This document shows positions 7,531-45,653 of a DNA stretch of 64,000 bases, piece by piece (the first letter of the stretch is position 1; each line of letters starts with the position of its first letter). The translations under genes and the position numbers were made by a program. Where the stretch lies: positions 3,374 through 67,373 of the forward strand of contig JAGQME010000002.1 in assembly GCA_020428795.1 (NCBI GenBank). The letters run 5' to 3'. Source of the stretch: Candidatus Kaiserbacteria bacterium. Lineage in GTDB: Bacteria; Patescibacteriota; Minisyncoccia; Phycocordibacterales; UBA918. A model generated the notes under the pieces. It saw nothing but the letters and a program-made list of their open reading frames with translations. It had not been told where the DNA came from and searched no databases.

Positions 7531-7832
7531 CTACCTTCACTTGGTGGATTGGCTCTTTGTACTGGACTAAGGACATTGGGGTCCCATTTAGCTTCTATTT
7601 TGTGGTGTTTTTCCTCAAAATTCTTTATTTCATGTTCCAGATACTCATGTAGTCGTTTGGCGTGCTCGGGTGTTAAGGCGTAAATATTTGACTGCGAGCC
7701 TGAGCTTAGTCCAACCACGAAATATTCAGGCGAAAAACCAACTCTAATATTTTCACAAAATAATTTCGGCGCATTTTTTAAATCTTCTTGTTTCATATTT
7801 ATATGGTACATTGTATTTAATGAAAAATCCAA
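7527..7832 (-). CDS. hypothetical protein
   Basis: 101-aa ORF divergent from the HD-domain gene. No confident domain is seen, though it weakly resembles DUF3467. Confidence 0.4.
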   Translation of the reverse strand: MDFSLNTMYHINMKQEDLKNAPKLFCENIRVGFSPEYFVVGLSSGSQSNIYALTPEHAKRLHEYLEHEIKNFEEKHHKIEAKWDPNVLSPVQRANPPSEGS

Positions 7833-8404
7833 ATCAAAAAATATCAGACTTTCTATTTGAAGTGGGGACTATGCGTCGTTTACAAAGAATGCACAGACAA
7901 ACTCTTTTGGTTGAAGACTCATCAGATACGATTGCTTCTCACTCTTACCGAGTGACACTGATCGGTTGGCATTTAGCCAAGTTGGAAGGAGCTGATCCCT
8001 ATAAGGTGGTTATGATGTGTTTATTGCACGATCTTGGTGAGATCCGTAGTAATGACCACAACTGGGTACACAAACGCTACACCAAAGTCTTTGACGACGA
8101 GATCAACAAAGATCAACTTGGTGACATGCCATTTACAGACCTATACGATATTGTCGAAGAGTATGAATTAAGAGAAAGCCGTGAATCAATATTGGCTAAA
8201 GACGCCGATGTAATTGACCAAATTCTTTTGCTTAGGGAGTATGAATGGCAGGGAAGTGTTGAAGCTAAAAAATGGCTCTATCGTGATGAGCTTAGGCATA
8301 TAGATCAAATCAAGTCAAAGGCCGGAAAAGAATTAGGTCGCACACTGTACCAGCGTGATCCTTCAGCTTGGTGGCAAGATTTGTCTACTAATATCAATCG
8401 TTAA
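7811..8404 (+). CDS. HD-domain phosphohydrolase (YfbR-like 5'-deoxynucleotidase family)
   Basis: SHSYRV..(H) and LLHDLGEIRSNDHN (HD motif), then a downstream Asp. The start is probably the internal Met near 7820. Confidence 0.7.
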   Translation: MYLMKNPNQKISDFLFEVGTMRRLQRMHRQTLLVEDSSDTIASHSYRVTLIGWHLAKLEGADPYKVVMMCLLHDLGEIRSNDHNWVHKRYTKVFDDEINKDQLGDMPFTDLYDIVEEYELRESRESILAKDADVIDQILLLREYEWQGSVEAKKWLYRDELRHIDQIKSKAGKELGRTLYQRDPSAWWQDLSTNINR

Positions 8405-8531: not shown

Positions 8532-9428
8532 ATGGAACAAACAGCAAAAAACTTTGCCCTGCAACTAGGGGCCATCATAACTTTGTACGTAACAATTACA
8601 TCGTTAATAGTTTTACTATTTAATATTATTAATATTCTTATCCCAGATGTCGCCGACTACCGTTGGCAGCTTGAAAACTCCATGTCTGGCATCCGCTTTT
8701 CAATTGCCACCTTGGTGGTTTTTATGCCAGCCTATTTAACTCTTACCAGAATAGTAAATAAGGCTAGACGAGAAACTGATCGTGCTTACCTTAACCTAAC
8801 CAAGTGGCTAATCTATCTATCGCTATTGGCTGGTGGTTTGGTTTTGCTAGGAAACTTTGTCGCCACTGTCTATACCTTTTTAAACGGAGAAATAACTTTG
8901 CGGTTTATCCTAAAGGCCTTGTCTTTGTTTATCGTAGTTGGAGCGGCCGTCTTATACTACTGGTTAGATGCTAAACACTATTGGCAGAAAAAAGAGCGTC
9001 TTTCTATTTACTACGGAATCTTGGTCGCCACTGTCTCAATAGTAGCGATGATCGTTGGCTACACTCAGATTGACACACCAAGCATGGTCCGAGAGATGAA
9101 GATTGATCAAAATCAAATCACTGATTTGCAAAATATACAATGGAAAATCGAAGAATACATACGTAATGAAGATAGATTGCCAGAGTCTATCAATGAAGCT
9201 TACGGCTCACTTAAAGCGCCAGTAGCCAGTGATGGTCGCTCTGATTATATCTACCGTGTATCTGATAAAGGATTTGAACTATGTGCTGAATTTAAATCAG
9301 AATCGGGTAACAATAGTTACACCAGACCATACTTCGATGAAAAACTAGTCATACAAGACCCTGACAATTGGGATTATGTAAGTGGTGAATTTTGCTTTGA
9401 GAGAGTGGTAAATATCGAAAATGAGTAA
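8532..9428 (+). CDS. hypothetical multi-pass membrane protein
   Basis: Four to five hydrophobic helices in the first ~170 aa, then a soluble C-terminal domain. Confidence 0.5.
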   Translation: MEQTAKNFALQLGAIITLYVTITSLIVLLFNIINILIPDVADYRWQLENSMSGIRFSIATLVVFMPAYLTLTRIVNKARRETDRAYLNLTKWLIYLSLLAGGLVLLGNFVATVYTFLNGEITLRFILKALSLFIVVGAAVLYYWLDAKHYWQKKERLSIYYGILVATVSIVAMIVGYTQIDTPSMVREMKIDQNQITDLQNIQWKIEEYIRNEDRLPESINEAYGSLKAPVASDGRSDYIYRVSDKGFELCAEFKSESGNNSYTRPYFDEKLVIQDPDNWDYVSGEFCFERVVNIENE

Positions 9429-10044
9429 TAAGTATTTAATTTTTGATTTTGACGGTGTAATTGGCGACACTTGGGAAACCGTTATTTTGGCCCATATCAA
9501 AAAGGGCAACCGATCCAACCGTCAAGAAGCTATAGCTGAAATGAATAGCTATTTTAGTAAAAAGCCACACCATACTAAAACACACTCCTTGTCTGAAACT
9601 GAATTAGCAAATGAATATAAATGGACTAGTGAATTTGGTAGTATTATGCACGAAATCGGAGTAACCCTATTTGATGACTTCGTGAAAGAGATTGAATTAT
9701 TACCCACAAAGTACAAAGCGGTAGTCTCAAGTGGTTCCCAGAATTACGTATCGCCGGCCTTAGCTAAAACTAATATAAATCCAACCCACATACTAGCTTT
9801 TGAAGACCATCACTCAAAAGAAGAAAAGATCCAACTAGTCGCCAAAGACTGGGACGCTGAATTGTCTGAGATTTACTATTTTACTGACACTCTGGCTGAC
9901 ATTTATGAGCTAAGAGACATTATTAGCACCAATAGATTAATCGGTGTTAGTTGGGGATTCTGTTCAAAAGAACAATTACTCACCGAATTAGCCGAGGAGA
10001 ATATTCTAAATAGTCCAAGTGAATTAGCTGTTAAACTTAAATAG
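9421..10044 (+). CDS. HAD-superfamily hydrolase
   Basis: N-terminal FDFDGVIGDTWET is HAD motif I (DxDGT/V). Confidence 0.6.
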   Translation: MSNKYLIFDFDGVIGDTWETVILAHIKKGNRSNRQEAIAEMNSYFSKKPHHTKTHSLSETELANEYKWTSEFGSIMHEIGVTLFDDFVKEIELLPTKYKAVVSSGSQNYVSPALAKTNINPTHILAFEDHHSKEEKIQLVAKDWDAELSEIYYFTDTLADIYELRDIISTNRLIGVSWGFCSKEQLLTELAEENILNSPSELAVKLK

Positions 10045-10151: not shown

Positions 10152-12950
10152 ATGAACAAAAAGTTTAATCCTCAGGACTTCGAAAAAAAATGGCAAGCTA
10201 AATGGGCTGAAGATAATGTCTATCACACCACGGAAAGTAAAAAGCCTAAGACTTTTGTTCTAGACATGTTTCCTTACCCTTCAGGTGAGGGTCTGCACGT
10301 TGGACATCCCAAAGGTTATATAGCCACCGATATCTACTCACGCTTTAAGCGAATGACAGGCCACGAAGTATTGCATCCAATGGGTTGGGACGCTTTTGGT
10401 CTGCCAGCCGAAAATTTTGCTATTAAGCATAAGGTTCATCCTAGGGTAGCGGTAGAAAAAAACGTAGCTCGCTTTAAAGAACAATTACAGGTGTTGGGTT
10501 TTGATTATGACTGGGAGAGAGAGATAAACACCACCGATCCAGAATACTATAAATGGACTCAGTGGATTTTTGTGCAGTTGTTTAAAAAAGGTCTGGCTTA
10601 TGAAAGTCATGAACCAATTAACTGGTGCCCCGGTTGTCAGACTGGGCTGGCCAACGAAGACCTAGAGTCAGACGGTACTTGCGAACGTTGTGGTTCGTTA
10701 GTAGAAAAACGACCGATGCGTCAATGGGTACTTAAAATACGATCGTACGCTGATCGTATGTTGGAAGACCTAGACAGTCTTAAATGGCCGGAACACATAA
10801 AAGAAGCTCAGCGTAACTGGATTGGCCGTAGCGAAGGAGCCGAAATTGATTTTAAGCTTTCCACTAAAGACAGAGTGACTGTTTTCACTACTCGTCCCGA
10901 TACGTTATTTGGAGTTACATATCTAGTATTAGCCCCCGAACATCCCTTAATTCAAAAAAACAAGAGCCAGGTATCAAACTGGGACGAAGTGATGCAATAC
11001 ATCGAACTAAGTACCAACAAAAAAGAGCAAGACCGGTTAGATGATACCAAGGAGAAAACTGGGGTTAAATTAGAGGGAATCACGGCTACCAATCCAGCAA
11101 ATAACGAAGAGATTCCGGTGTATATTGCTGATTACGTACTAGCTAGCTACGGAACAGGGGCGATTATGGCTGTACCGGCTCACGATGAGCGTGACTACGC
11201 CTTTGCCGAAAAATTTAACATTCCTATCAAACAAGTCGTCAGAAAAGTATTCGGGGAAACGTTACCAAACGCCATCCCTAGAGTAGCGGCTGGTGCAATC
11301 GTATATAATCCTAAGACTGAAAAATATCTTGTTTCATTTAGTCATGAATTTAATAAGCACAGCCCGTGGTTTGGTGGACTTGAAGACGGAGAAGACTTTT
11401 CTGAGACTGCTGTCAGAGAAACCTTGGAGGAAAGTGGTTATAAAACAAAGTTTATTAGATATATTGGTGACGAAGTAGAATCTCATTTTTATCACCCCGG
11501 CAAAGATTTGAATCGTTCTCTAATTAGTCGTATGTGTTTACTAGAAATTATCGATCAAGAGCCTATCACTGTCTCAGAGGAAGAAAAGAAAAAACAGGAA
11601 CCAGTCTGGTTAACAAAAGAAGAACTTGTCTCAAAGTTTACTGAAGAACGTGATTCCTACGATGTCTCAATGTTATTTGACCCACGTCCTTTTACAGGAA
11701 TGGGTAATGTTTGTAATTCTGATGAATTCGATGACCTAAGTTCTAAAGAAGCCAAAGTCGCCATTACTGAAAAAGTGGGCGGTAGAATGACAGCTACTTA
11801 CAAAATCCGTGATTGGGTATTCAGTCGCCAAAGATACTGGGGTGAGCCTATTCCGATTATTCACTGTGAAAAATGTGGACCGGTGGCTGTTCCAGAGGAT
11901 CAACTACCAGTCGTTTTACCGGAAGTTGAGCATTACGAGCCAACTGGTACCGGAGAATCCCCTTTAGCCAACATTACTGACTGGGTAAACACTACTTGTC
12001 CAGAATGCGGAGAAGGAGCTAAAAGAGAGACCAACACCATGCCTCAATGGGCTGGTTCATCGTGGTATTACTTAAGGTTTATGGATAATCACAACAACCA
12101 AGCCTTAGTGTCTAAAGAAAAAGAACAATACTGGGCGCCAGTGGATGTTTACGTTGGTGGTGACCACGCTGTTAGGCACTTGATTTATGCTCGCTTCTGG
12201 CACAAGTTTCTTTATGACCTAGGTGTAGTGTCCACTATTGAACCTTTTCAAAGATTAGAGTTTCTTGGCTTTATCTTGGCTGAAGACGGACGCAAAATGA
12301 GTAAACGCTGGGGAAATATTATTAATCCTGATGACATTGTTAAATTAGTTGGCGCCGACACCCTTCGAGTTTATGAAATGTTTATGGGTCCGTTTGAAAA
12401 CACCATCGCTTGGAGTCAGGACGGCTTGGTTGGCGCTCGGCGGTTTTTGGAAAGAGTAAATGGCTTAAGCGAACACTTTATTGATAATGAAAATGAATTA
12501 AGTGAGAGACAGTTACATAAAACTATCAAAAAAGTCTGCGATGACATAGAAGAATTCAAATTCAATACAGCTATCAGCGCCATGATGGTGTATGTCAACA
12601 CTGTTGAAAAAGAGGGATTAACTCAGACAGCTTACGAGACCTTTTTGAAATTATTGGCTCCATTTGCTCCTCATCTAACTGAAGAGTTATGGTACGGACT
12701 AGGGTACACAAAATCAATCCACCTAGAAAGTTATCCCAAATACGAGCAGACTTTGGTGGTTGATAATGAAGTAACTATCGGTGTACAGGTAAATGGTAGG
12801 GTACGAGGGAACATAACTATATCCACTAGCGCCTCCGAAGATGAAGCGATAGCTTTGGCAAAAACTGTCACCTCAATTAAATCTCATATAACTGGCAACA
12901 TTAAAAAAGTGATTTATAAACCGGCCAAGATACTAAATATTGTGATATAA
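10152..12950 (+). CDS. leuS: leucyl-tRNA synthetase carrying an internal Nudix-hydrolase domain insertion
   Basis: HVGHPKGY (HIGH), the editing-domain AHDERDY motif, and RDWVFSRQRYWGEPIPII. An inserted block (about aa 375-520) contains the Nudix box GGLEDGEDFSETAVRETLEESGY. Confidence 0.95.
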   Translation: MNKKFNPQDFEKKWQAKWAEDNVYHTTESKKPKTFVLDMFPYPSGEGLHVGHPKGYIATDIYSRFKRMTGHEVLHPMGWDAFGLPAENFAIKHKVHPRVAVEKNVARFKEQLQVLGFDYDWEREINTTDPEYYKWTQWIFVQLFKKGLAYESHEPINWCPGCQTGLANEDLESDGTCERCGSLVEKRPMRQWVLKIRSYADRMLEDLDSLKWPEHIKEAQRNWIGRSEGAEIDFKLSTKDRVTVFTTRPDTLFGVTYLVLAPEHPLIQKNKSQVSNWDEVMQYIELSTNKKEQDRLDDTKEKTGVKLEGITATNPANNEEIPVYIADYVLASYGTGAIMAVPAHDERDYAFAEKFNIPIKQVVRKVFGETLPNAIPRVAAGAIVYNPKTEKYLVSFSHEFNKHSPWFGGLEDGEDFSETAVRETLEESGYKTKFIRYIGDEVESHFYHPGKDLNRSLISRMCLLEIIDQEPITVSEEEKKKQEPVWLTKEELVSKFTEERDSYDVSMLFDPRPFTGMGNVCNSDEFDDLSSKEAKVAITEKVGGRMTATYKIRDWVFSRQRYWGEPIPIIHCEKCGPVAVPEDQLPVVLPEVEHYEPTGTGESPLANITDWVNTTCPECGEGAKRETNTMPQWAGSSWYYLRFMDNHNNQALVSKEKEQYWAPVDVYVGGDHAVRHLIYARFWHKFLYDLGVVSTIEPFQRLEFLGFILAEDGRKMSKRWGNIINPDDIVKLVGADTLRVYEMFMGPFENTIAWSQDGLVGARRFLERVNGLSEHFIDNENELSERQLHKTIKKVCDDIEEFKFNTAISAMMVYVNTVEKEGLTQTAYETFLKLLAPFAPHLTEELWYGLGYTKSIHLESYPKYEQTLVVDNEVTIGVQVNGRVRGNITISTSASEDEAIALAKTVTSIKSHITGNIKKVIYKPAKILNIVI

Positions 12951-13080: not shown

Positions 13081-14106
13081 ATGATTTCGTTTAAACCTAA
13101 ACAAGTAACCAAAAAACTCCTTAGCGTGCTCCCACCAAGAGCCCGCGATGTGCTTGAAAAGCGCTATGGATTAGGAGCTGATGGTGCCACTCACACCCTA
13201 GAATCGATTGGTCAATCGTACGGTATTACCCGTGAACGAGTACGCCAAATTGAAAACTACGGTATTCAATCAATCCAAAAGTCTGAGGTATATAATGAAT
13301 TCGAGTCAGTCTTTACTGAAATGCAAGAGATCATAAATAAATTAGGTGGCGGTATCGTAGCCGAGCACGTGATGTTGGAAGAATTGAGTAGTAATCAAGA
13401 CCTACGAAATCATATTTACTTTCTATTTGTAATTGGTCATCCTTTCTATAGATCAAAAGAAAGTCCAGCCTATACTCATCGCTGGTACACCGAAAAGAAG
13501 ATTGCTGACACTGTTGAACAGGCTCTAAAGAATGTAAAAAAATCATTGAATCGTGATGATCTAATAACCGAAGAAGAAATTATCAACCGTTTCCGTGAAG
13601 AATTGATTGATTTGACCGATAAGTACGATGAGCAAATCCTAAAGAGATGGCTTCTAATCTCTAAAGACATCGCTTCAAACCCGCTTGGAGAATGGGGTCA
13701 CTCAGCTAGTCCAAATGTAAAAGTAAAAGGAATCCGTGATTACGCTTATTTGGTAGTTAAGCGACATGGCTCACCAATGCACTTTAGAGAAGTGGCAGAA
13801 GCGATCGAAGCTTTGTTTTCTAAAAAAGCCCATACGGCCACCACTCATAACGAACTAATAAAAGACGAAAGATTTGTTTTGGTTGGTAGGGGATTATATG
13901 CCCTCACTGAATGGGGTTACTCAGCGGGAGTTGTTAAAGATGTGTTAAGAGATATTCTTGAGCAACACGGTCCGCTTACCAAAGAAGAAATAATCGACAA
14001 GGTCAGAAAAGAACGCTATGTAAAAGACAACACCATTGTTGTTAACCTCCAAGACGTGAATTTATTTAAACGCCATAGCAACGGGACCTACTCATTGTCT
14101 GAATAA
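13081..14106 (+). CDS. sigma-70 region-4-like HTH DNA-binding protein with a C-terminal extension of unknown function
   Basis: LPPRARDVLEKRYGL...TLESIGQSYGITRERVRQIENYG is a classic sigma70_r4 helix-turn-helix. The remaining ~270 aa are uncharacterised. Confidence 0.55.
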   Translation: MISFKPKQVTKKLLSVLPPRARDVLEKRYGLGADGATHTLESIGQSYGITRERVRQIENYGIQSIQKSEVYNEFESVFTEMQEIINKLGGGIVAEHVMLEELSSNQDLRNHIYFLFVIGHPFYRSKESPAYTHRWYTEKKIADTVEQALKNVKKSLNRDDLITEEEIINRFREELIDLTDKYDEQILKRWLLISKDIASNPLGEWGHSASPNVKVKGIRDYAYLVVKRHGSPMHFREVAEAIEALFSKKAHTATTHNELIKDERFVLVGRGLYALTEWGYSAGVVKDVLRDILEQHGPLTKEEIIDKVRKERYVKDNTIVVNLQDVNLFKRHSNGTYSLSE

Positions 14107-24960: not shown

Positions 24961-26904
24961 TTGCTTATGAACGGAAACCAAATCAGAAAAAAATACTTAG
25001 ATTATATGGCTGAGAGGGGACACGCCATCGTCCCGTCTTCAGCCCTAGTACCAGAAAACGATCCAACTACTCTTTTTACCGGTAGCGGAATGCAACCCAT
25101 GGTCCCTTATTTAATGGGGGAGACTCATCCTAAAGGAACCCGTATTGCCGACTCACAAAAATGTTTTCGGGCTGAAGATATTGATGAAGTAGGGGACAAT
25201 AGCCACACTACCTTTTTCGAAATGTTAGGTAATTGGTCCCTTGGTGACTATTTTAAGTCTGAACAAATTCCTTGGATTTATTCATTTTTGGTAGACGAAA
25301 TTAAACTTGATCCAGAGAGAATTTATGTAACGACTTTTATTGGCGATAAAGCTTTAGGTATTCCCAAAGATACCGAGTCAGTTGAACTATGGCAAAAACT
25401 TTTCTCTAAAAGAAATCTATCATCAGACGTGGCTGAAATAGGTTCAGCCGACAATGGTTACAAGCGTGGTATGAAGGAAGGGGAGAGAATATTTTATTAC
25501 GACGCCAAAGAAAACTGGTGGAGTCGAGCTGGTACTCCAGACAAAATGCCGATTGGTGAAATCGGGGGTGGGGACAGCGAAATGTTTTTTGACTTTGGTA
25601 CTCCGCACGATAAAAAATACGGAGAACACTGTCATCCAGCCTGTGATTGTGGCCGTTTCCTAGAAATTGGTAACTCTGTTTTCATGGAGTACAAGAAGAC
25701 CGAATCAGGTTTTGTTAAGTTACCCAAGCAAAACGTTGATTTTGGTGGCGGTTTAGAAAGAATTTTGGCAGCTGTAAATGATAACAACGATGTCTATAAA
25801 TCAGACTTACTCTGGCCGGTCATAGAACAACTACAAACCATATCCGGCAAAAAATACGAAGATAACCTTGAAGCTTTCCGAGTTATCACCGACCATATCA
25901 GAGGAGCTGTCTTCATGATTGGAGATGATGTTAACCCAAGCAACAGTGAACAGGGCTATTTTGTAAGAAGACTAATCAGAAGAGCCGTTAGATACACCGA
26001 TGTCCTAGGTGTCAACTCCGGACAATTATCAAATCTGGCTAGAGCTGTGATTACTATATATGAAGAACAGTATCCTAATCTAAGTAACAACGCTGAAAAT
26101 ATAAAAAATACTATCAGTAATGAAGAAGAACAATTCCGCAAGACACTGGAGAAAGGTTTGAAACAATTTAATAAAATATCCTTACAAATCCACCTAACTT
26201 CTAAAGAAGTTAATGGCAAAAAAGTGATTGACACCTCAGCTAAACCAATAGAAGTAAAGGCTATTAGCGCTAAAAACGCTTTCGACCTGTTCACTACTTA
26301 TGGATTTCCAATTGAACTAACCGAAGAAATCGCTCAGGAGAAGGGGCTCGTCGTTGACAAGAAAGGGTTCACTAAACTCATGGATGAACACCGAGCCAAA
26401 TCTAGAGCTGGCGCTGAACAAAAATTCAAAGGTGGGCTAGCCGATCATTCAAACAAAGTGGTGGAATACCACACCACTACTCATTTATTGTTGGCGGCCC
26501 TCAGAAAAGAACTTGGTGATCATGTGCATCAAGCTGGTTCAAATATAACCAGTGAAAGATTGCGCTTCGATTTTACACATCCTGACAAGATTGATAGTGA
26601 TACCTTAAAGAAAATTGAAGATGAAGTAAACAAAACAATCAGCGACGGCGGGTCAGTCAATATTGAATTTATGCCAAAATCAGAGGCCGAGAATGATGAA
26701 ACCATAGAAGCCAGTTTTTGGGATAGGTATCCAGATGAAGTTAAGGTCTATACAATCAAAAACCCTAGCAACAAAATCGTATCAAGAGAGCTCTGTGGTG
26801 GTCCCCACGTTAATGATCTATCACAAATAGACGGTGTATTCAAAATTAAAAAAGAAGAATCTTCAGCGGCTGGCATAAGGCGAATTAAAGCTGTTTTGGA
26901 ATAG
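24961..26904 (+). CDS. alaS: alanyl-tRNA synthetase (short form lacking the C-terminal C-Ala/DHHA1 region)
   Basis: FTGSGMQPMVPY, FRAEDIDEVG..HTTFFEMLGNWS, and the editing-site HTTTHLL...H motifs. It is 647 aa. Confidence 0.9.
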   Translation: MLMNGNQIRKKYLDYMAERGHAIVPSSALVPENDPTTLFTGSGMQPMVPYLMGETHPKGTRIADSQKCFRAEDIDEVGDNSHTTFFEMLGNWSLGDYFKSEQIPWIYSFLVDEIKLDPERIYVTTFIGDKALGIPKDTESVELWQKLFSKRNLSSDVAEIGSADNGYKRGMKEGERIFYYDAKENWWSRAGTPDKMPIGEIGGGDSEMFFDFGTPHDKKYGEHCHPACDCGRFLEIGNSVFMEYKKTESGFVKLPKQNVDFGGGLERILAAVNDNNDVYKSDLLWPVIEQLQTISGKKYEDNLEAFRVITDHIRGAVFMIGDDVNPSNSEQGYFVRRLIRRAVRYTDVLGVNSGQLSNLARAVITIYEEQYPNLSNNAENIKNTISNEEEQFRKTLEKGLKQFNKISLQIHLTSKEVNGKKVIDTSAKPIEVKAISAKNAFDLFTTYGFPIELTEEIAQEKGLVVDKKGFTKLMDEHRAKSRAGAEQKFKGGLADHSNKVVEYHTTTHLLLAALRKELGDHVHQAGSNITSERLRFDFTHPDKIDSDTLKKIEDEVNKTISDGGSVNIEFMPKSEAENDETIEASFWDRYPDEVKVYTIKNPSNKIVSRELCGGPHVNDLSQIDGVFKIKKEESSAAGIRRIKAVLE

Positions 26905-44228: not shown

Positions 44229-45653
44229 ATGAAAATCTCTACCAACAAAAACTCTATCGAAAAAATTGACCAAAAATTCTGTCGATTAGTGATTACAGAA
44301 GACAAACCAAATGTACATCGCTTGGTAGAAACAAAAGATAACAGATTGGAATATCGTCTAGGAGCCGGTAAGTTTTCAAAAATGACTGCTCGCAAATTTA
44401 GGCTTTTTACTCGTAGTATCATTCAAGCAACCAAAAGTCACCAGCTAGAAAACCTAGCCATTGATATCAACGCAATTCCTTTTCCAAAGACCGACTACGA
44501 GGCTAGCTGGAACCTATCTACCTTAGTGGAAAACCTCATCTTGGCTGACTACACTTTCACAAAGTATAAATCCTCGACCAAAGAAGATCCCGTCATTAAA
44601 GAAATTCTACTTTGTGGGAATCTGTCCAAAGCTGACACAGTGGGCCTAAAGAGGGGAATTATCGTGGCTGAATCCACCAACCTAGCCAGAGACATCGCCA
44701 ACACCACCGCTGATGATCTAACTCCTGATCTTCTGGCCAAAGTGGCCAAAAAAGCGCTTCTTGGTACCAATGTAAAATTGTCGGTCTTAGATAAAAAAGC
44801 CATTAAGCAAGCCAAAATGGGGCTTCTAGAAGCGGTTGGTAAGGGTTCACACAATGATCCTCGTTTCATTATTATGGAATATTACGGAGCCGGAAAACCA
44901 ACTAAAGATAATAAGGGCAAGACCAAACAACCAGTCATCTTGATCGGTAAAGGAATTACTTTTGATACCGGTGGTCTAAATGTCAAACCAAGTGGTTATA
45001 TGCACGACATGCACCTAGATATGTCCGGTGGCTCATCAGTAATCGGTACCATGGTAGCGGTAGCCAAACTAAAATTGAAACAAAACATCGTCGCTCTGAT
45101 CCCAGCGGCTGAGAACGCCGTCTCCGATAAAGCCATGCGAGCTGGTGACATTGTAACCGCTATGAATGGCAAAACCGTTGAAATCCTCCACACCGATGCT
45201 GAAGGGAGGCTAGTTTTGGCAGATGCCTTAACTTATTCAGAAAGATTCAAGCCTAGAGCGATTATTGATGTCGCTACTCTGACCGGAGCTGCTCTAGTCG
45301 CCTTGGGGCAATACGCCAGCGCCATCATGACCAAAGATGAAAAGCTACAAACCACTTTACAAAACTTAGGAGAACAAAGCGGTGATTATGTTTGGCCTCT
45401 ACCACTTTGGTCAGAGTACCAAAGTGGATTAAAAAGCCATCGCGCCGACTACTCCAACATCGACAAAAACTTTTCACGCTACGCCGGCAGTATCGAAGGT
45501 GGTACTTTTTTGTCATTCTTTGCTCCTAAAAATGTACCGTGGGCCCATATTGATATCGCCCCGAGAATGGATTCGGTAGCCCATGATAAGTTAACCAAGG
45601 GTTCAGCCGGTGAACCGGTCAGACTCTTGGTCTCATACCTTGAACAAGCCTAG
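44229..45653 (+). CDS. pepA: leucyl aminopeptidase (M17 family)
   Basis: NTDAEGRLVLADAL signature and the upstream DMSGG metal-ligand region. Confidence 0.85.
   Translation: MKISTNKNSIEKIDQKFCRLVITEDKPNVHRLVETKDNRLEYRLGAGKFSKMTARKFRLFTRSIIQATKSHQLENLAIDINAIPFPKTDYEASWNLSTLVENLILADYTFTKYKSSTKEDPVIKEILLCGNLSKADTVGLKRGIIVAESTNLARDIANTTADDLTPDLLAKVAKKALLGTNVKLSVLDKKAIKQAKMGLLEAVGKGSHNDPRFIIMEYYGAGKPTKDNKGKTKQPVILIGKGITFDTGGLNVKPSGYMHDMHLDMSGGSSVIGTMVAVAKLKLKQNIVALIPAAENAVSDKAMRAGDIVTAMNGKTVEILHTDAEGRLVLADALTYSERFKPRAIIDVATLTGAALVALGQYASAIMTKDEKLQTTLQNLGEQSGDYVWPLPLWSEYQSGLKSHRADYSNIDKNFSRYAGSIEGGTFLSFFAPKNVPWAHIDIAPRMDSVAHDKLTKGSAGEPVRLLVSYLEQA

What the first reader, a model, noticed from the sequence alone, without database searches (positions are those of the whole stretch)
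11275..11700. Nudix hydrolase domain inserted in-frame inside leucyl-tRNA synthetase
Between the conserved AHDERDYAFAEKF editing-domain motif and the RDWVFSRQRYWGEPIP catalytic-core motif, LeuS carries an extra block of about 145 aa. The block starts with a Nudix-like beta-strand (RVAAGAIVYNPKTEKYLVSF) and contains a complete Nudix box, GGLEDGEDFSETAVRETLEESGY, which fits GX5EX7REUXEEXGU. The ORF is continuous at 932 aa, versus roughly 800-880 aa for typical bacterial LeuS, so this is a domain fusion and not a neighbouring gene. Class I and II aaRSs can make Ap4A and related dinucleotides. A Nudix (Ap4A/NDP-X pyrophosphatase-type) module embedded in an aaRS would be a functionally coherent but, to my knowledge, unusual architecture. 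It might instead act on mis-activated aminoacyl-adenylates or on an NAD-derived tRNA cap. That is speculation.
Basis: partly seen in the sequence, partly recalled or inferred. Interest (0 to 1): 0.65.

Follow-up and report, generated by a model that had tools for sequence, protein, structure and literature searches.

The report
Swappable Nudix cassette inside leucyl-tRNA synthetase
The leucyl-tRNA synthetase of this candidate-phyla-radiation bacterium carries a complete, apparently active Nudix hydrolase domain nested in a loop of its editing domain, and related genomes gain, lose and swap this domain (and other small hydrolase domains) like an exchangeable cassette.

Summary
The leuS ORF (10152-12950, 932 aa) is continuous and carries a Pfam-significant NUDIX domain (residues 376-500, E 1.6e-11) with a complete Nudix box. 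About 136 aa are inserted at one point of the CP1 editing domain, relative to T. thermophilus LeuRS. AlphaFold2 folds the insert at pLDDT 96. It is not an artefact: an independent assembly and more than 150 related LeuRS clusters, all from Parcubacteria-group bacteria where named, show the same architecture.

The unexpected part is its behaviour. LeuRS genes that are 93-99.9% identical outside the insert carry unrelated Nudix cassettes, or none, with sharp junctions and recombination-tract signatures. Yet the metal-binding glutamates are invariant in 81 of 81 inserts. Two further LeuRS loops host Nudix, Ham1/ITPase, HAD or alpha/beta-hydrolase domains. The same Nudix and HAD families also occur as separate genes directly upstream of leuS; in this window the HAD one does.

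The best reading is an autonomous nucleotide house-cleaning pyrophosphatase module that uses leuS as a carrier. I do not think it is a step in aminoacylation chemistry. The Ap4A idea is not excluded. I found no published description.

The parts
10152..12950 (+). leuS: bacterial-type leucyl-tRNA synthetase, 932 aa, the host protein
   Evidence: Continuous ORF. TIGR00396 leuS_bact scores 980.5 bits against a cutoff of 548.4. E = 3e-221 to T. thermophilus LeuRS. HIGH motif HVGH at residues 49-52 and KMSKS motif KMSKR at 715-719. The full-length AF2 model has pLDDT 83.4.
11277..11651 (+). Nudix hydrolase domain (residues 376-500), the guest domain, nested in CP1
   Evidence: Pfam PF00293 at E = 1.6e-11, 44.8 bits against 21.1. 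The AF2 model of residues 358-524 has pLDDT 95.9 and pTM 0.89. Foldseek matches Nudix enzymes at TM 0.78-0.81.
11373..11441 (+). Nudix box GGLEDGEDFSETAVRETLEESGY (residues 408-430), with E414, R422, E423, E426 and E427
   Evidence: G408, E423, E426 and E427 are invariant in 81 of 81 aligned inserts, while the insert is only 22% identical overall. The pattern G-x5-[EQDK]-x7-xE-xx-EE is found in 149 of 155 site-B inserts.
11223..11705 (+). Exchangeable cassette as defined by comparison of near-identical alleles (residues ~358-518). This is the Nudix domain plus its two linkers, and it is 'site B'.
   Evidence: Similarity between 93-99.9% identical LeuRS pairs stops just after FAxKFxI and resumes just before NSxEFDG. 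DNA-level breakpoints were seen. GC content is 0.36 here against 0.43-0.47 in the flanks.
10812..11249 (+). CP1 editing domain, N-terminal part (residues 221-366). It includes the T-rich motif TTRPDT (246-251) and AHDERD (343-348).
   Evidence: PF13603 profile positions 1-143. T246-T251, D345 and D348 are invariant across 49 relatives. I infer from this that the editing site is intact.
11682..11786 (+). CP1 editing domain, C-terminal part (residues ~511-545), resuming after the cassette
   Evidence: PF13603 profile positions 153-183 match right after the insert. The region aligns to Tt LeuRS from residue 377 onward.
10857..10880 (+). 'Site A' hairpin (residues 236-243; a sub-site lies near residue 209). 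It is empty in this window but holds Nudix, Ham1, HAD or alpha/beta-hydrolase cassettes in relatives.
   Evidence: Core-HMM mapping of 204 LeuRS sequences found 17 with at least 80 extra aa here. The contents were identified by Pfam.
11997..12017 (+). 'Site C' (CPECGEG, residues 616-622, a Cys-x2-Cys knuckle). It is empty in this window but holds Nudix, HAD, alpha/beta-hydrolase or unassigned cassettes in relatives.
   Evidence: 16 of 204 LeuRS sequences have at least 80 extra aa at HMM position 499, which is window residue ~621. Contents were identified by Pfam.
9421..10044 (+). Free-standing HAD-family hydrolase gene directly upstream of leuS. It is a homologue of in-frame site-C cassettes found in other LeuRS proteins.
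   Evidence: 45% identity over 195 aa, E = 8e-61, to the site-C insert of LeuRS P0167. That insert matches HAD_2 and Hydrolase. NCBIfam gives only weak PpaX and HAD-IA matches.
7811..8404 (+). HD-domain protein, YfbR-like 5'-deoxynucleotidase type, in the same gene string
   Evidence: Pfam HD_3 at 6.9e-17 and YfbR-like at 2.9e-7. The NCBIfam 5'-deoxynucleotidase match is weak only.

Best explanation
**What it is.** The window encodes a complete, probably fully functional LeuRS. Its catalytic HIGH and KMSKS motifs and its editing-site motifs are intact. An independently folding, catalytically competent Nudix pyrophosphohydrolase domain of about 125 aa, plus two short linkers, is nested in a surface loop of the CP1 editing domain.

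**How it behaves.** The guest belongs to a Parcubacteria-group Nudix family that exists in two interchangeable genomic states:
- a small stand-alone gene abutting the leuS start codon;
- an in-frame cassette in one of three permissive LeuRS loops (A ~residues 209-243, B residue 376, C ~residue 621), sometimes in two or three copies.

The same loops accept other small hydrolases: Ham1/ITPase, HAD phosphatase and alpha/beta serine hydrolase. Cassettes are gained, lost and replaced much faster than leuS diverges, by homologous recombination that uses the highly conserved halves of leuS as flanks.

**Inferred function.** The module hydrolyses a nucleoside-diphosphate-X compound on its own. The most likely substrates are non-canonical or surplus (d)NTPs or dinucleoside polyphosphates. 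On this view it is nucleotide-pool house-cleaning in an organism that depends on salvaged nucleotides. LeuRS serves as a constitutively expressed, insertion-tolerant carrier and not as a catalytic partner.

**Shown versus inferred.** Shown here: the architecture, the fold, conservation of the catalytic residues, cassette polymorphism, the recombination signatures, and the dual stand-alone/embedded states. Inferred: catalytic activity, substrate class, and independence from LeuRS chemistry.
For: - **Architecture and fold:**. In the full-length model the CP1 plus Nudix block is the most confident part, at pLDDT 85-96.
- **Catalytic competence:** G408, E423, E426 and E427 are invariant in 81 of 81 inserts, although the insert has a median 22% identity to the query against 74.7% for the rest of the protein. 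The box pattern is present in 149 of 155 site-B inserts. Within the window's cassette sub-family pN is 0.21-0.32 against pS of 0.73-0.82.
- **Cassette behaviour, protein level:** presence of the insert is not monophyletic on the core tree, and core distance does not predict insert distance (Spearman -0.10). Among LeuRS pairs with cores at least 90% identical that involve a cassette, 6 of 7 are discordant: 4 carry unrelated cassettes and 2 are presence/absence. The junctions are sharp.
- **Cassette behaviour, DNA level:** in L001 versus L002 the flanks are 98.1% and 99.6% identical, including the next gene, yet 480 nt replace 151 nt with no similarity. All 37 mismatches lie within about 1.1 kb of the cassette and none in the outer ~2 kb. 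In L005 versus L004 the flanks are 96.0% and 98.0% identical and the cassettes are unrelated. In L006 versus L007 the flanks are 90.6% and 86.6% identical and the cassettes are unrelated.
- **Other sites and other guests:**
- **Dual state:** Nudix P0252 lies directly upstream of a cassette-less leuS. Nudix P0234 lies directly upstream of a cassette-bearing leuS. These free-standing proteins are 43-50% identical to site-A and site-B cassettes. The window's own upstream HAD gene is 45% identical to site-C cassettes.
- **House-cleaning theme:** the guests are Nudix, Ham1/ITPase and HAD. A YfbR-like HD nucleotidase lies nearby. Relative P0262 lies 4 nt downstream of Fpg/MutM.
- **No defence-system or viral affinity:**
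Against: - No enzymatic data exist, and the substrate class cannot be read from sequence. Profile and fold searches give near-equal scores to Ap4A/Ap6A hydrolases, MutT-type enzymes, NudI, DIPP and RppH. No NCBIfam equivalog reaches its cutoff.
- The persistent physical association with leuS, of all genes, both as upstream neighbour and as guest, is what a functional partnership would also predict. The carrier idea does not explain why leuS in particular.
- A sub-clade of about 15-22 inserts has E414Q together with R422A/S, so not every cassette need be active.
- The counts of cassette-bearing relatives are biased upward, because the cassette itself adds score to database hits.
- How an upstream gene becomes an in-frame internal insert, or the reverse, is unexplained. 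No repeats or mobile-element footprints were found.
Confidence: 0.6

Rival explanations
1. The Nudix domain degrades dinucleoside polyphosphates (Ap4A, Ap4N) or other adenylate-derived by-products made by LeuRS itself. The fusion would place the clean-up enzyme next to the source.
For: - Ap4A and Ap6A hydrolases are among the closest solved relatives: lupin Ap4A hydrolase at 4.4e-12 by profile, and Aquifex Ap4A hydrolase (rmsd 2.4 A, TM 0.80) and T. thermophilus Ndx1.
- The best, though sub-threshold, NCBIfam matches of free-standing relatives are RppH-type enzymes.
- The family is repeatedly tied to leuS, both embedded and as the gene abutting the leuS start. This is a Rosetta-stone type of argument.
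- The catalytic residues are conserved.
Against: - Alleles 99.6-99.9% identical exist with and without the cassette. Cassettes of under 30% identity replace each other.
- Up to three copies occur per protein, in three different loops.
- Ham1, HAD and alpha/beta hydrolases occupy the same loops.
- One relative is paired with Fpg and not with leuS.
- From general knowledge, not tested here: class II enzymes such as LysRS and PheRS are the main Ap4A producers, and LeuRS is a weak one.
Confidence: 0.2
2. An RNA-directed Nudix. On this view the module is an RppH/NudC-like pyrophosphohydrolase or decapping enzyme that acts on 5' ends of RNA (triphosphate, Np4N or NAD caps), possibly on tRNA(Leu) or its precursor held by LeuRS.
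For: - RppH models are the top NCBIfam matches for free-standing relatives. P0252 scores 39.8 bits over the full model length.
- YtkD and NudC appear among the weak hits of the window cassette.
- The host is an RNA-binding enzyme.
Against: - All these scores are far below the family cutoffs (116-259 bits).
- The cassette sits in three different loops on different faces of LeuRS, so there is no fixed geometry towards a bound tRNA.
- The presence/absence polymorphism applies here as well.
Confidence: 0.08
3. A conflict or immunity module. On this view the fast-turnover cassettes protect LeuRS or the cell against a nucleotide-like toxin, an antibiotic that mimics leucyl-adenylate, or a phage-made signal. 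Diversifying selection would explain the swapping.
For: - Turnover is very fast and allelic diversity is high at a fixed site. This pattern is typical of conflict loci.
- LeuRS is a known antibiotic target: agrocin 84/TM84 appears in the abstract of PMC5059758 (listed).
- NCBI curates an IleRS family with a guest acetyltransferase domain (NF040702, listed).
Against: - There is no PADLOC match for the cassette or its neighbours.
- There is no special similarity to viral Nudix proteins.
- The guest families are classic metabolic house-cleaning enzymes.
- Nudix chemistry cleaves pyrophosphate bonds, which leucyl-adenylate mimics lack. This point is from general knowledge.
Confidence: 0.07
4. A non-catalytic passenger. 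On this view the Nudix fold is a structural spacer, a binding domain or a selfish in-frame insertion with no enzymatic role.
For: - The loop tolerates anything from 4 to ~300 aa.
- A sub-clade has E414Q and R422A/S.
- Two site-B inserts have lost a box glutamate or changed RE to RK.
Against: - The three metal-binding glutamates and G408 are invariant in 81 of 81 inserts at 22% overall identity.
- pN is well below pS.
- Free-standing homologues are kept as separate genes.
Confidence: 0.04
5. An artefact: an assembly chimera, a frameshift fusion of two genes, or an unspliced intron or intein.
For: The sequence comes from a metagenome-assembled genome, and the GC content dips in the insert.
Against: - The same architecture appears in an independent ENA assembly and in more than 150 clusters from NCBI, JGI, ENA and Logan.
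- The frame is open through both junctions in all of them.
- No Hint, intein or homing-endonuclease domain is found. There is no Rfam intron hit.
- Host and guest both fold confidently as one chain.
Confidence: 0.01

Closest known systems
Free-standing Nudix pyrophosphohydrolases of the MutT / Ap(n)A-hydrolase / RppH group. Examples: E. faecalis MutT/nudix protein 2azw, Aquifex Ap4A hydrolase 3i7u, T. thermophilus Ndx1 1vc8, lupin Ap4A hydrolase 1f3y.
   Same: They share the fold (TM 0.78-0.81), a complete Nudix box and a size of about 130 aa. Stand-alone members of the very same family exist in related genomes.
   Different: Here the domain is nested in-frame in another enzyme. Sequence identity to any characterised enzyme is only 16-25%. 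No curated equivalog model reaches its cutoff, so the substrate is unknown.
The LeuRS CP1 editing domain as a classic inserted domain (PF13603 inside the Rossmann fold)
   Same: The host here is an ordinary bacterial-type LeuRS whose CP1 is itself an insertion in the catalytic domain.
   Different: A 2026 survey of 48,551 insertion events lists PF13603 as insertion-only, with zero instances as a host (PMC13114784). Here CP1 is the host, which gives a two-level nest: Nudix in CP1 in Rossmann fold.
NCBIfam NF040702 'isoleucine--tRNA ligase, N-acetyltransferase domain-containing'
   Same: It is a class Ia synthetase that carries an unrelated small-molecule enzyme domain and is curated as a family (listed).
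   Different: The synthetase and the guest are both different. I did not examine its architecture or variability. Nothing I saw indicates cassette swapping there.
Inteins (in-frame mobile insertions in conserved sites of essential genes)
   Same: They are in-frame, sit in conserved essential genes, are sporadically distributed and are present or absent between close relatives.
   Different: There is no Hint or endonuclease domain and no splice-junction residues were identified. The guest is an enzyme retained in the mature protein. Spread appears to be by ordinary homologous recombination, not by homing.
Accessory-gene hot spots between conserved core genes, where replacement occurs by recombination in the flanks
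   Same: Unrelated or absent cargo lies between flanks that are more than 96-99% identical, with elevated divergence next to the cargo.
   Different: Here the flanks are the two halves of one essential gene, and the cargo must stay in-frame and fold inside a loop of the host protein.
The set of nucleotide house-cleaning enzymes: MutT-type Nudix, Ham1/RdgB ITPase, HAD and HD nucleotidases. This grouping is from my own knowledge of the literature and was not retrieved here.
   Same: The guest repertoire (Nudix, Ham1, HAD) and the neighbouring YfbR-like HD protein match this set. One relative is paired with Fpg/MutM.
   Different: No member here is assignable to a characterised specificity. The alpha/beta serine hydrolase and two unassigned guest families do not fit the set.

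Membership tests
Nudix hydrolase superfamily (Pfam PF00293) | Profile match above the curated gathering score | tested here: met
   44.8 bits in the full protein and 48.1 bits for the insert alone, against a cutoff of 21.1; E = 1.6e-11 and 1.5e-12.
Nudix hydrolase superfamily (Pfam PF00293) | Nudix box GX5EX7REUXEEXGU with the metal-binding glutamates | tested here: met
   Residues 408-430 are GGLEDGEDFSETAVRETLEESGY. The only deviation is Thr at the first U position. G408, E423, E426 and E427 are invariant in 81 of 81 homologous inserts.
Nudix hydrolase superfamily (Pfam PF00293) | Alpha/beta/alpha sandwich fold | tested here: met
   AF2 pLDDT 95.9. Foldseek gives 525 PDB matches at E <= 0.001, and every one of the 50 best listed is a Nudix enzyme; the best TM-scores normalised by target length are 0.78-0.81.
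Nudix hydrolase superfamily (Pfam PF00293) | Divalent-cation-dependent hydrolysis of a nucleoside diphosphate linked to X | not testable with these tools
   This needs an enzyme assay.
Ap4A hydrolase (Nudix type) | Specific sequence or structural similarity that separates it from other Nudix classes | tested here: inconclusive
   Ap4A and Ap6A hydrolases are among the top hits, but their scores are indistinguishable from those of MutT, NudI, DIPP and Dcp2. As a single sequence, 3i7u scores only 5e-4.
RppH RNA pyrophosphohydrolase (NCBIfam PRK00714 models) | Score above the curated cutoff | tested here: not met
   The window cassette scores 14-16 bits against cutoffs of 116-259. The free-standing relative P0252 scores 39.8 against 118.
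MutT 8-oxo-dGTP diphosphatase (NF008044 / MutT1 NF052459) | Score above the curated cutoff | tested here: not met
   15-16 bits against 148 and 475. The only other support is a contextual hint: relative P0262 lies next to Fpg.
Bacterial leucyl-tRNA synthetase (TIGR00396) | Equivalog model above its cutoff, with HIGH and KMSKS motifs | tested here: met
   980.5 bits against 548.4. HVGH is at residues 49-52 and KMSKR at 715-719.
Bacterial leucyl-tRNA synthetase (TIGR00396) | CP1 editing domain with the T-rich motif and the conserved Asp | tested here: met
   PF13603 at 203 bits. TTRPDT is at 246-251 and AHDERD at 343-348, and both are invariant in relatives. Editing activity itself is not testable here.
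Bacterial leucyl-tRNA synthetase (TIGR00396) | Leucine-specific domain before KMSKS (present in most LeuRS, not all) | tested here: not met
   Tt residues 580-637 have no counterpart, and EDGR precedes KMSKR. Mycoplasma mobile LeuRS is a precedent, with a GKDG tetrapeptide (abstract of PMC3643597).
Intein | Hint domain, with or without a homing endonuclease, at the insertion | tested here: not met
   No such Pfam family is found even at E <= 1. The insert is wholly accounted for by the Nudix fold.
Known anti-phage defence proteins (PADLOC-DB 2.0) | Match to any defence-system model | tested here: not met
   The cassette, the HAD gene, the HD gene and the DUF5671 gene have 0 families. The downstream gene has only a sigma-70 region-4 resemblance to MzaA.

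The most novel reading that the evidence does not exclude
In Parcubacteria-group bacteria, leuS may be a dedicated docking platform for a polymorphic set of small hydrolases: Nudix, Ham1/ITPase, HAD, alpha/beta hydrolases and two unassigned families. These move between an intergenic slot just upstream of leuS and at least three in-frame slots inside the protein, and they are exchanged between lineages by recombination in the conserved halves of the gene. That would be an 'intragenic accessory-gene island', a way of organising the flexible genome that I have not seen described. It may also physically link tRNA charging and proofreading to quality control of the salvaged nucleotide pool.
Probability: 0.4. 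Interest if true: 0.85.

Novelty: new variant of a known kind. Interest (0 to 1): 0.68.

Why it matters
Aminoacyl-tRNA synthetases are among the most conserved and best-studied enzymes. The LeuRS editing domain is regarded as a guest that never acts as a host. Here it hosts a second enzyme, and the guest is a population-level variable cassette, not a fixed fusion.

If confirmed, this would matter in four ways:
- It gives a natural map of three insertion-tolerant loops in LeuRS, which is useful for protein engineering.
- It shows that ultra-small genomes can place accessory enzymes inside essential genes and shuffle them by recombination.
- It offers a testable link between nucleotide-pool sanitation and translation in organisms that depend on scavenged nucleotides.
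- It warns that leuS, a common phylogenetic marker, contains recombining segments in this group.

Tried and rejected
- **Searching with the insert alone.** The 5.8-billion-protein index returned nothing, not even the protein itself. This is a limit of the word index and not evidence of absence; the full-length query found everything.
- **GTDB genome scan.** The scan used poorly conserved peptides as patterns and returned only distant LeuRS genes (22-48% identity).
- **Mobile-element footprint.** One inverted repeat (I1, 23-nt arms, 74% complementary) coincides with the cassette borders. Junction inverted repeats are at chance level in 5 of 6 loci when compared with shuffles, so I rejected this.
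- **Intron or intein.** There are no Rfam hits in the window and no Hint or endonuclease domain. Rejected.
- **Defence system.** There is no PADLOC hit and no closer similarity to viral Nudix proteins than to cellular ones. Not supported.
- **Substrate assignment.** I tried NCBIfam, PDB sequence, PDB profile and Foldseek searches. No class stands out.
- **My first insertion-site mapping.** BLAST HSPs made it unreliable, because HSPs run through similar inserts. I replaced it with a core-HMM mapping. hmmalign still splits some long inserts into pieces, so counts per site are approximate.
- **dN/dS.** Synonymous sites are saturated (pS 0.73-0.87), so only pN well below pS can be stated.

Full report

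Yes. The ORF 10152..12950 (+) is a single 932-aa frame. It is a bacterial-type LeuRS: TIGR00396 scores 980.5 bits against a cutoff of 548.4, and the match to T. thermophilus LeuRS has E = 3e-221.

Pfam NUDIX (PF00293) matches residues 376-500 at E = 1.6e-11, 44.8 bits against a gathering score of 21.1. The excised segment alone gives 1.5e-12. The box GGLEDGEDFSETAVRETLEESGY (residues 408-430) fits the Nudix consensus apart from Thr at one hydrophobic position.

The phmmer alignment to T. thermophilus LeuRS breaks cleanly. Query 3-377 aligns to Tt 2-375, and query 514-710 aligns to Tt 377-579. So about 136 aa are inserted at one point.

The Pfam editing-domain profile PF13603 is split by the insert: positions 1-143 lie before it and 153-183 after it. 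It is also not a divergent leucine-specific domain. That domain (Tt 580-637) is simply absent, replaced by EDGR in front of KMSKR.

The catalytic motifs (HVGH, KMSKR) and the editing motifs (TTRPDT, AHDERD) are intact and invariant among relatives.

**2. Is it an artefact?**

No. The identical protein is NCBI MCA9361048.1, annotated 'leucine--tRNA ligase [Candidatus Kaiserbacteria bacterium]' (Parcubacteria group). An independent ENA assembly encodes the same 932-aa architecture with four C-terminal substitutions.

AlphaFold2 folds the insert with its linkers at mean pLDDT 95.9 and pTM 0.89. In the full-length model (pLDDT 83.4) the CP1 plus Nudix block is the most confident part of the protein. 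The low-confidence segments are the usual mobile catalytic loops.

Foldseek against the PDB finds 525 matches at E <= 0.001, and every one of the 50 best listed is a Nudix enzyme. The best are E. faecalis 2azw, Aquifex Ap4A hydrolase 3i7u (rmsd 2.4 A, TM 0.80), T. thermophilus Ndx1, the mycobacterial MutT1 enzymes and human Ap4A hydrolase.

**3. How widespread is it?**

Of the 120 best LeuRS relatives, 81 carry a 135-168-aa insert at exactly this site. The other 39 have a loop of 4-79 aa. This proportion is inflated, because the insert itself adds score.

A profile of 34 inserts was searched against 1.84 billion cluster representatives. It found 156 proteins at E <= 1e-30, almost all of them LeuRS or LeuRS fragments.

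The few source names available are Kaiserbacteria, Paceibacteria, Pacebacteria and Parcubacteria. There is one MAG labelled Bacteroidetes.

**4. The unexpected behaviour.**

The insert is far more divergent than its host. Median identity to the query is 22% in the insert and 74.7% elsewhere. Yet G408, E423, E426 and E427 are invariant in all 81 inserts, and the box pattern is present in 149 of 155 site-B inserts in the larger set. Within the window's own cassette sub-family, pN (0.21-0.32) is far below pS (0.73-0.82, saturated). So the guest is under purifying selection on its catalytic core.

The guest does not evolve with its host. On a core-only tree, insert presence is scattered, and core distance does not predict insert distance (Spearman -0.10).

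Direct pairwise checks show the following:
- P0005 (Nudix, 951 aa) and P0108 (no Nudix, 841 aa) have essentially identical cores (99.6-99.9% depending on the columns used).
- P0023 and P0027 have cores 98.4-98.7% identical and carry Nudix domains with no detectable mutual similarity.
- P0008 and P0076 have cores 93.6% identical and cassettes 29% identical.

In all three pairs the similarity stops just after FAxKFxI and resumes just before NSxEFDG.

Among all near-full-length LeuRS pairs with cores at least 90% identical, 7 involve a cassette and 6 of those are discordant. The single concordant pair is the window and its ENA twin.

The DNA picture is the same:
- **L001 versus L002.** The flanks are 98.1% and 99.6% identical, including the downstream sortase gene, but 480 nt replace 151 nt without similarity. 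All 37 mismatches fall within about 1.1 kb either side of the cassette, and none fall in the outer ~2 kb. That is the signature of an imported recombination tract.
- **L005 versus L004.** The flanks are 96.0% and 98.0% identical, and about 511 nt are replaced by about 517 nt of unrelated Nudix sequence.
- **L006 versus L007.** The flanks are 90.6% and 86.6% identical and the cassettes are unrelated.

No repeats or inverted repeats mark the junctions beyond chance. There is no intein, intron or endonuclease signal.

**5. It is one slot of several, and Nudix is one guest of several.**

I mapped 204 LeuRS sequences onto a core HMM built from cassette-less relatives. Three insertion hot spots appear:
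- site A (window residues ~209-243; 17 proteins with at least 80 extra aa);
- site B (residue 376; 155 proteins);
- site C (residue ~621, in a CPxC knuckle; 16 proteins).

Guests identified by Pfam:
- **Site A:** Nudix, Ham1/ITPase, HAD, alpha/beta serine hydrolase, a weak nucleotidyltransferase-like match, and an unassigned family.
- **Site B:** Nudix, single or in tandem.
- **Site C:** Nudix, HAD, alpha/beta serine hydrolase, and two unassigned families.

P0179 additionally has a full Ham1 domain in front of the anticodon-binding domain. Some proteins carry three Nudix copies. A non-LeuRS host was also seen: P0217, an M17 aminopeptidase with two GNAT and two Nudix domains.

In this window, sites A and C are empty. 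The other synthetases in the window (AlaRS, a class IIb enzyme, GluRS) and its M17 peptidase carry no guests. No other Nudix is encoded in the 64 kb.

**6. The same families also live just outside leuS.**

The closest free-standing relatives are 160-183-aa proteins that are 43-50% identical to some site-A and site-B cassettes, and 28-35% identical to the window's. Their contexts are:
- P0252 is the gene immediately upstream of a leuS that has only a ~20-aa loop at site B. The order is YchF - DUF5671 - small ORFs - Nudix - leuS, with the Nudix stop codon 2 nt before the leuS start.
- P0234 occupies the same position in front of a leuS that also has a Nudix cassette.
- P0262 lies 4 nt downstream of an Fpg/MutM gene, near polA and ruvA.
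- P0259 lies next to another Nudix in an unrelated context.

In the window itself the upstream slot holds a HAD gene (9421..10044). It is 45% identical (E = 8e-61) to the HAD domain inserted in-frame at site C of P0167. Two genes further upstream there is a YfbR-like HD nucleotidase.

The gene order YchF - DUF5671 - (variable slot) - leuS - sigma70_r4/HARE-HTH protein - DUF8128 - YceG is conserved across these genomes and in the window.

**7. What it most likely does.**

Shown here: a folded Nudix domain with a conserved catalytic core, sitting in a loop of an otherwise intact LeuRS, and behaving as an exchangeable cassette that has a stand-alone form next to leuS.

Inferred: it is an active pyrophosphohydrolase that works independently of LeuRS chemistry. 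Four results argue for independence:
- alleles with and without it coexist at 99.6-99.9% core identity;
- guests of under 30% identity replace one another;
- it can sit in three different loops and in multiple copies;
- unrelated hydrolases use the same loops.

The guest repertoire (Nudix, Ham1/ITPase, HAD, with an HD nucleotidase nearby) and the Fpg pairing of one relative point to sanitation or turnover of nucleotides. From general knowledge, this would be plausible for bacteria that lack de novo nucleotide synthesis.

The substrate cannot be named. Ap4A/Ap6A hydrolases, MutT-type enzymes, NudI, DIPP, Dcp2 and RppH all match at similar levels, and no curated equivalog reaches its cutoff. It is helped by the repeated tie to leuS, which the carrier model does not explain. 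A defence role is not supported.

**8. Comparison with what is known.**

I found no paper that describes a Nudix-LeuRS architecture. The search covers only the open-access library. A 2026 survey of domain insertions lists the LeuRS editing domain as insertion-only, with zero host events, and does not mention Nudix.

Database annotation pipelines already record PF00293 on these proteins, so the bare architecture is visible in public data but is called only 'leucine--tRNA ligase'.

The nearest analogues are guest-enzyme-bearing synthetases such as NCBIfam's IleRS with a GNAT domain (listed), inteins, and intergenic accessory-gene hot spots. The case differs from each of them, as set out in the Closest known systems entries.

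I rate it a new variant of a known kind (domain insertion or fusion). The cassette behaviour and the dual intergenic/intragenic residence are the new elements.

**9. Verdict.**

Interest is moderately high, mainly because of what emerged beyond the original finding.

Noticed in passing
window 9421-10044 (+): The free-standing HAD-family gene directly upstream of leuS overlaps the end of the DUF5671 gene by 8 nt. It is 45% identical (E = 8e-61) to a domain inserted in-frame at site C of LeuRS in other genomes (P0167, P0185, P0239).
   Followed up: yes
window 12279-12308 (+), LeuRS residues 710-719: The leucine-specific domain is absent. Only EDGR precedes KMSKR, and this is invariant in the relatives. 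It resembles the GKDG tetrapeptide reported for Mycoplasma mobile LeuRS (abstract of PMC3643597).
   Followed up: partly
window 7811-8404 (+): An HD-domain protein with YfbR-like 5'-deoxynucleotidase similarity (Pfam HD_3 at 6.9e-17) lies in the same gene string. It fits the nucleotide house-cleaning theme, but the NCBIfam scores are far below the cutoff.
   Followed up: partly
P0052, P0111, P0178, P0187, P0190, P0212, P0236, P0268 (LeuRS site A, window residues ~209-243); P0167, P0181, P0185, P0228, P0237, P0239 (site C, window residue ~621): Other LeuRS loops host Ham1/ITPase, HAD and alpha/beta serine-hydrolase (PF06821) domains in-frame. P0179 has a full Ham1 domain (984-1167) just before the anticodon-binding domain, which would be a fourth site.
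   Followed up: partly
P0163, P0201, P0231, P0273, P0179 (site C inserts of ~110-135 aa); P0186 (site A) and P0266 (site C): Two recurrent guest-domain families have no Pfam match at E <= 0.01. One begins '...ERYFG.(I/V)K.GD...'. The other contains '...GFWNE.VG...F.FK..(N/D)G...'.
   Followed up: no
P0217 (1318 aa); compare window 44229-45653: P0217 is an M17 leucyl aminopeptidase whose catalytic domain is interrupted by two GNAT and two Nudix domains. Nesting of small enzymes in housekeeping proteins may therefore not be limited to LeuRS. The window's own M17 peptidase (474 aa) has no guests.
   Followed up: no
P0021, P0124, P0130 (site B); P0125, P0126, P0134: Some LeuRS proteins carry tandem Nudix domains at site B, or three Nudix domains spread over several sites.
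   Followed up: partly
window 13081-14106 (+); P0083: The conserved downstream gene encodes a sigma-70 region-4 plus HARE-HTH/delta-like protein. P0083 (1120 aa) is a LeuRS that carries these same two domains within a ~350-aa C-terminal extension, which looks like a read-through fusion or a sequencing error.
   Followed up: no
about 15-22 site-B cassettes, e.g. P0032, P0035, P0036, P0039, P0045, P0048, P0049, P0053: One cassette sub-family has E414Q together with R422A/S and often G429A in the Nudix box, while keeping E423/E426/E427. This could mean altered chemistry or reduced activity.
   Followed up: no
window 11300-11750: GC content falls to 0.36 across the cassette, against 0.43-0.47 in the flanking leuS sequence. 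This is consistent with weaker constraint or a foreign origin.
   Followed up: no
window 24961-26904 (+): The alanyl-tRNA synthetase is only 647 aa and ends right after the tRNA_SAD domain, so it apparently lacks the usual C-terminal domain.
   Followed up: no
window 1-64000: No tRNA genes (ARAGORN) and no Rfam family at gathering threshold were found in the whole 64-kb window.
   Followed up: yes
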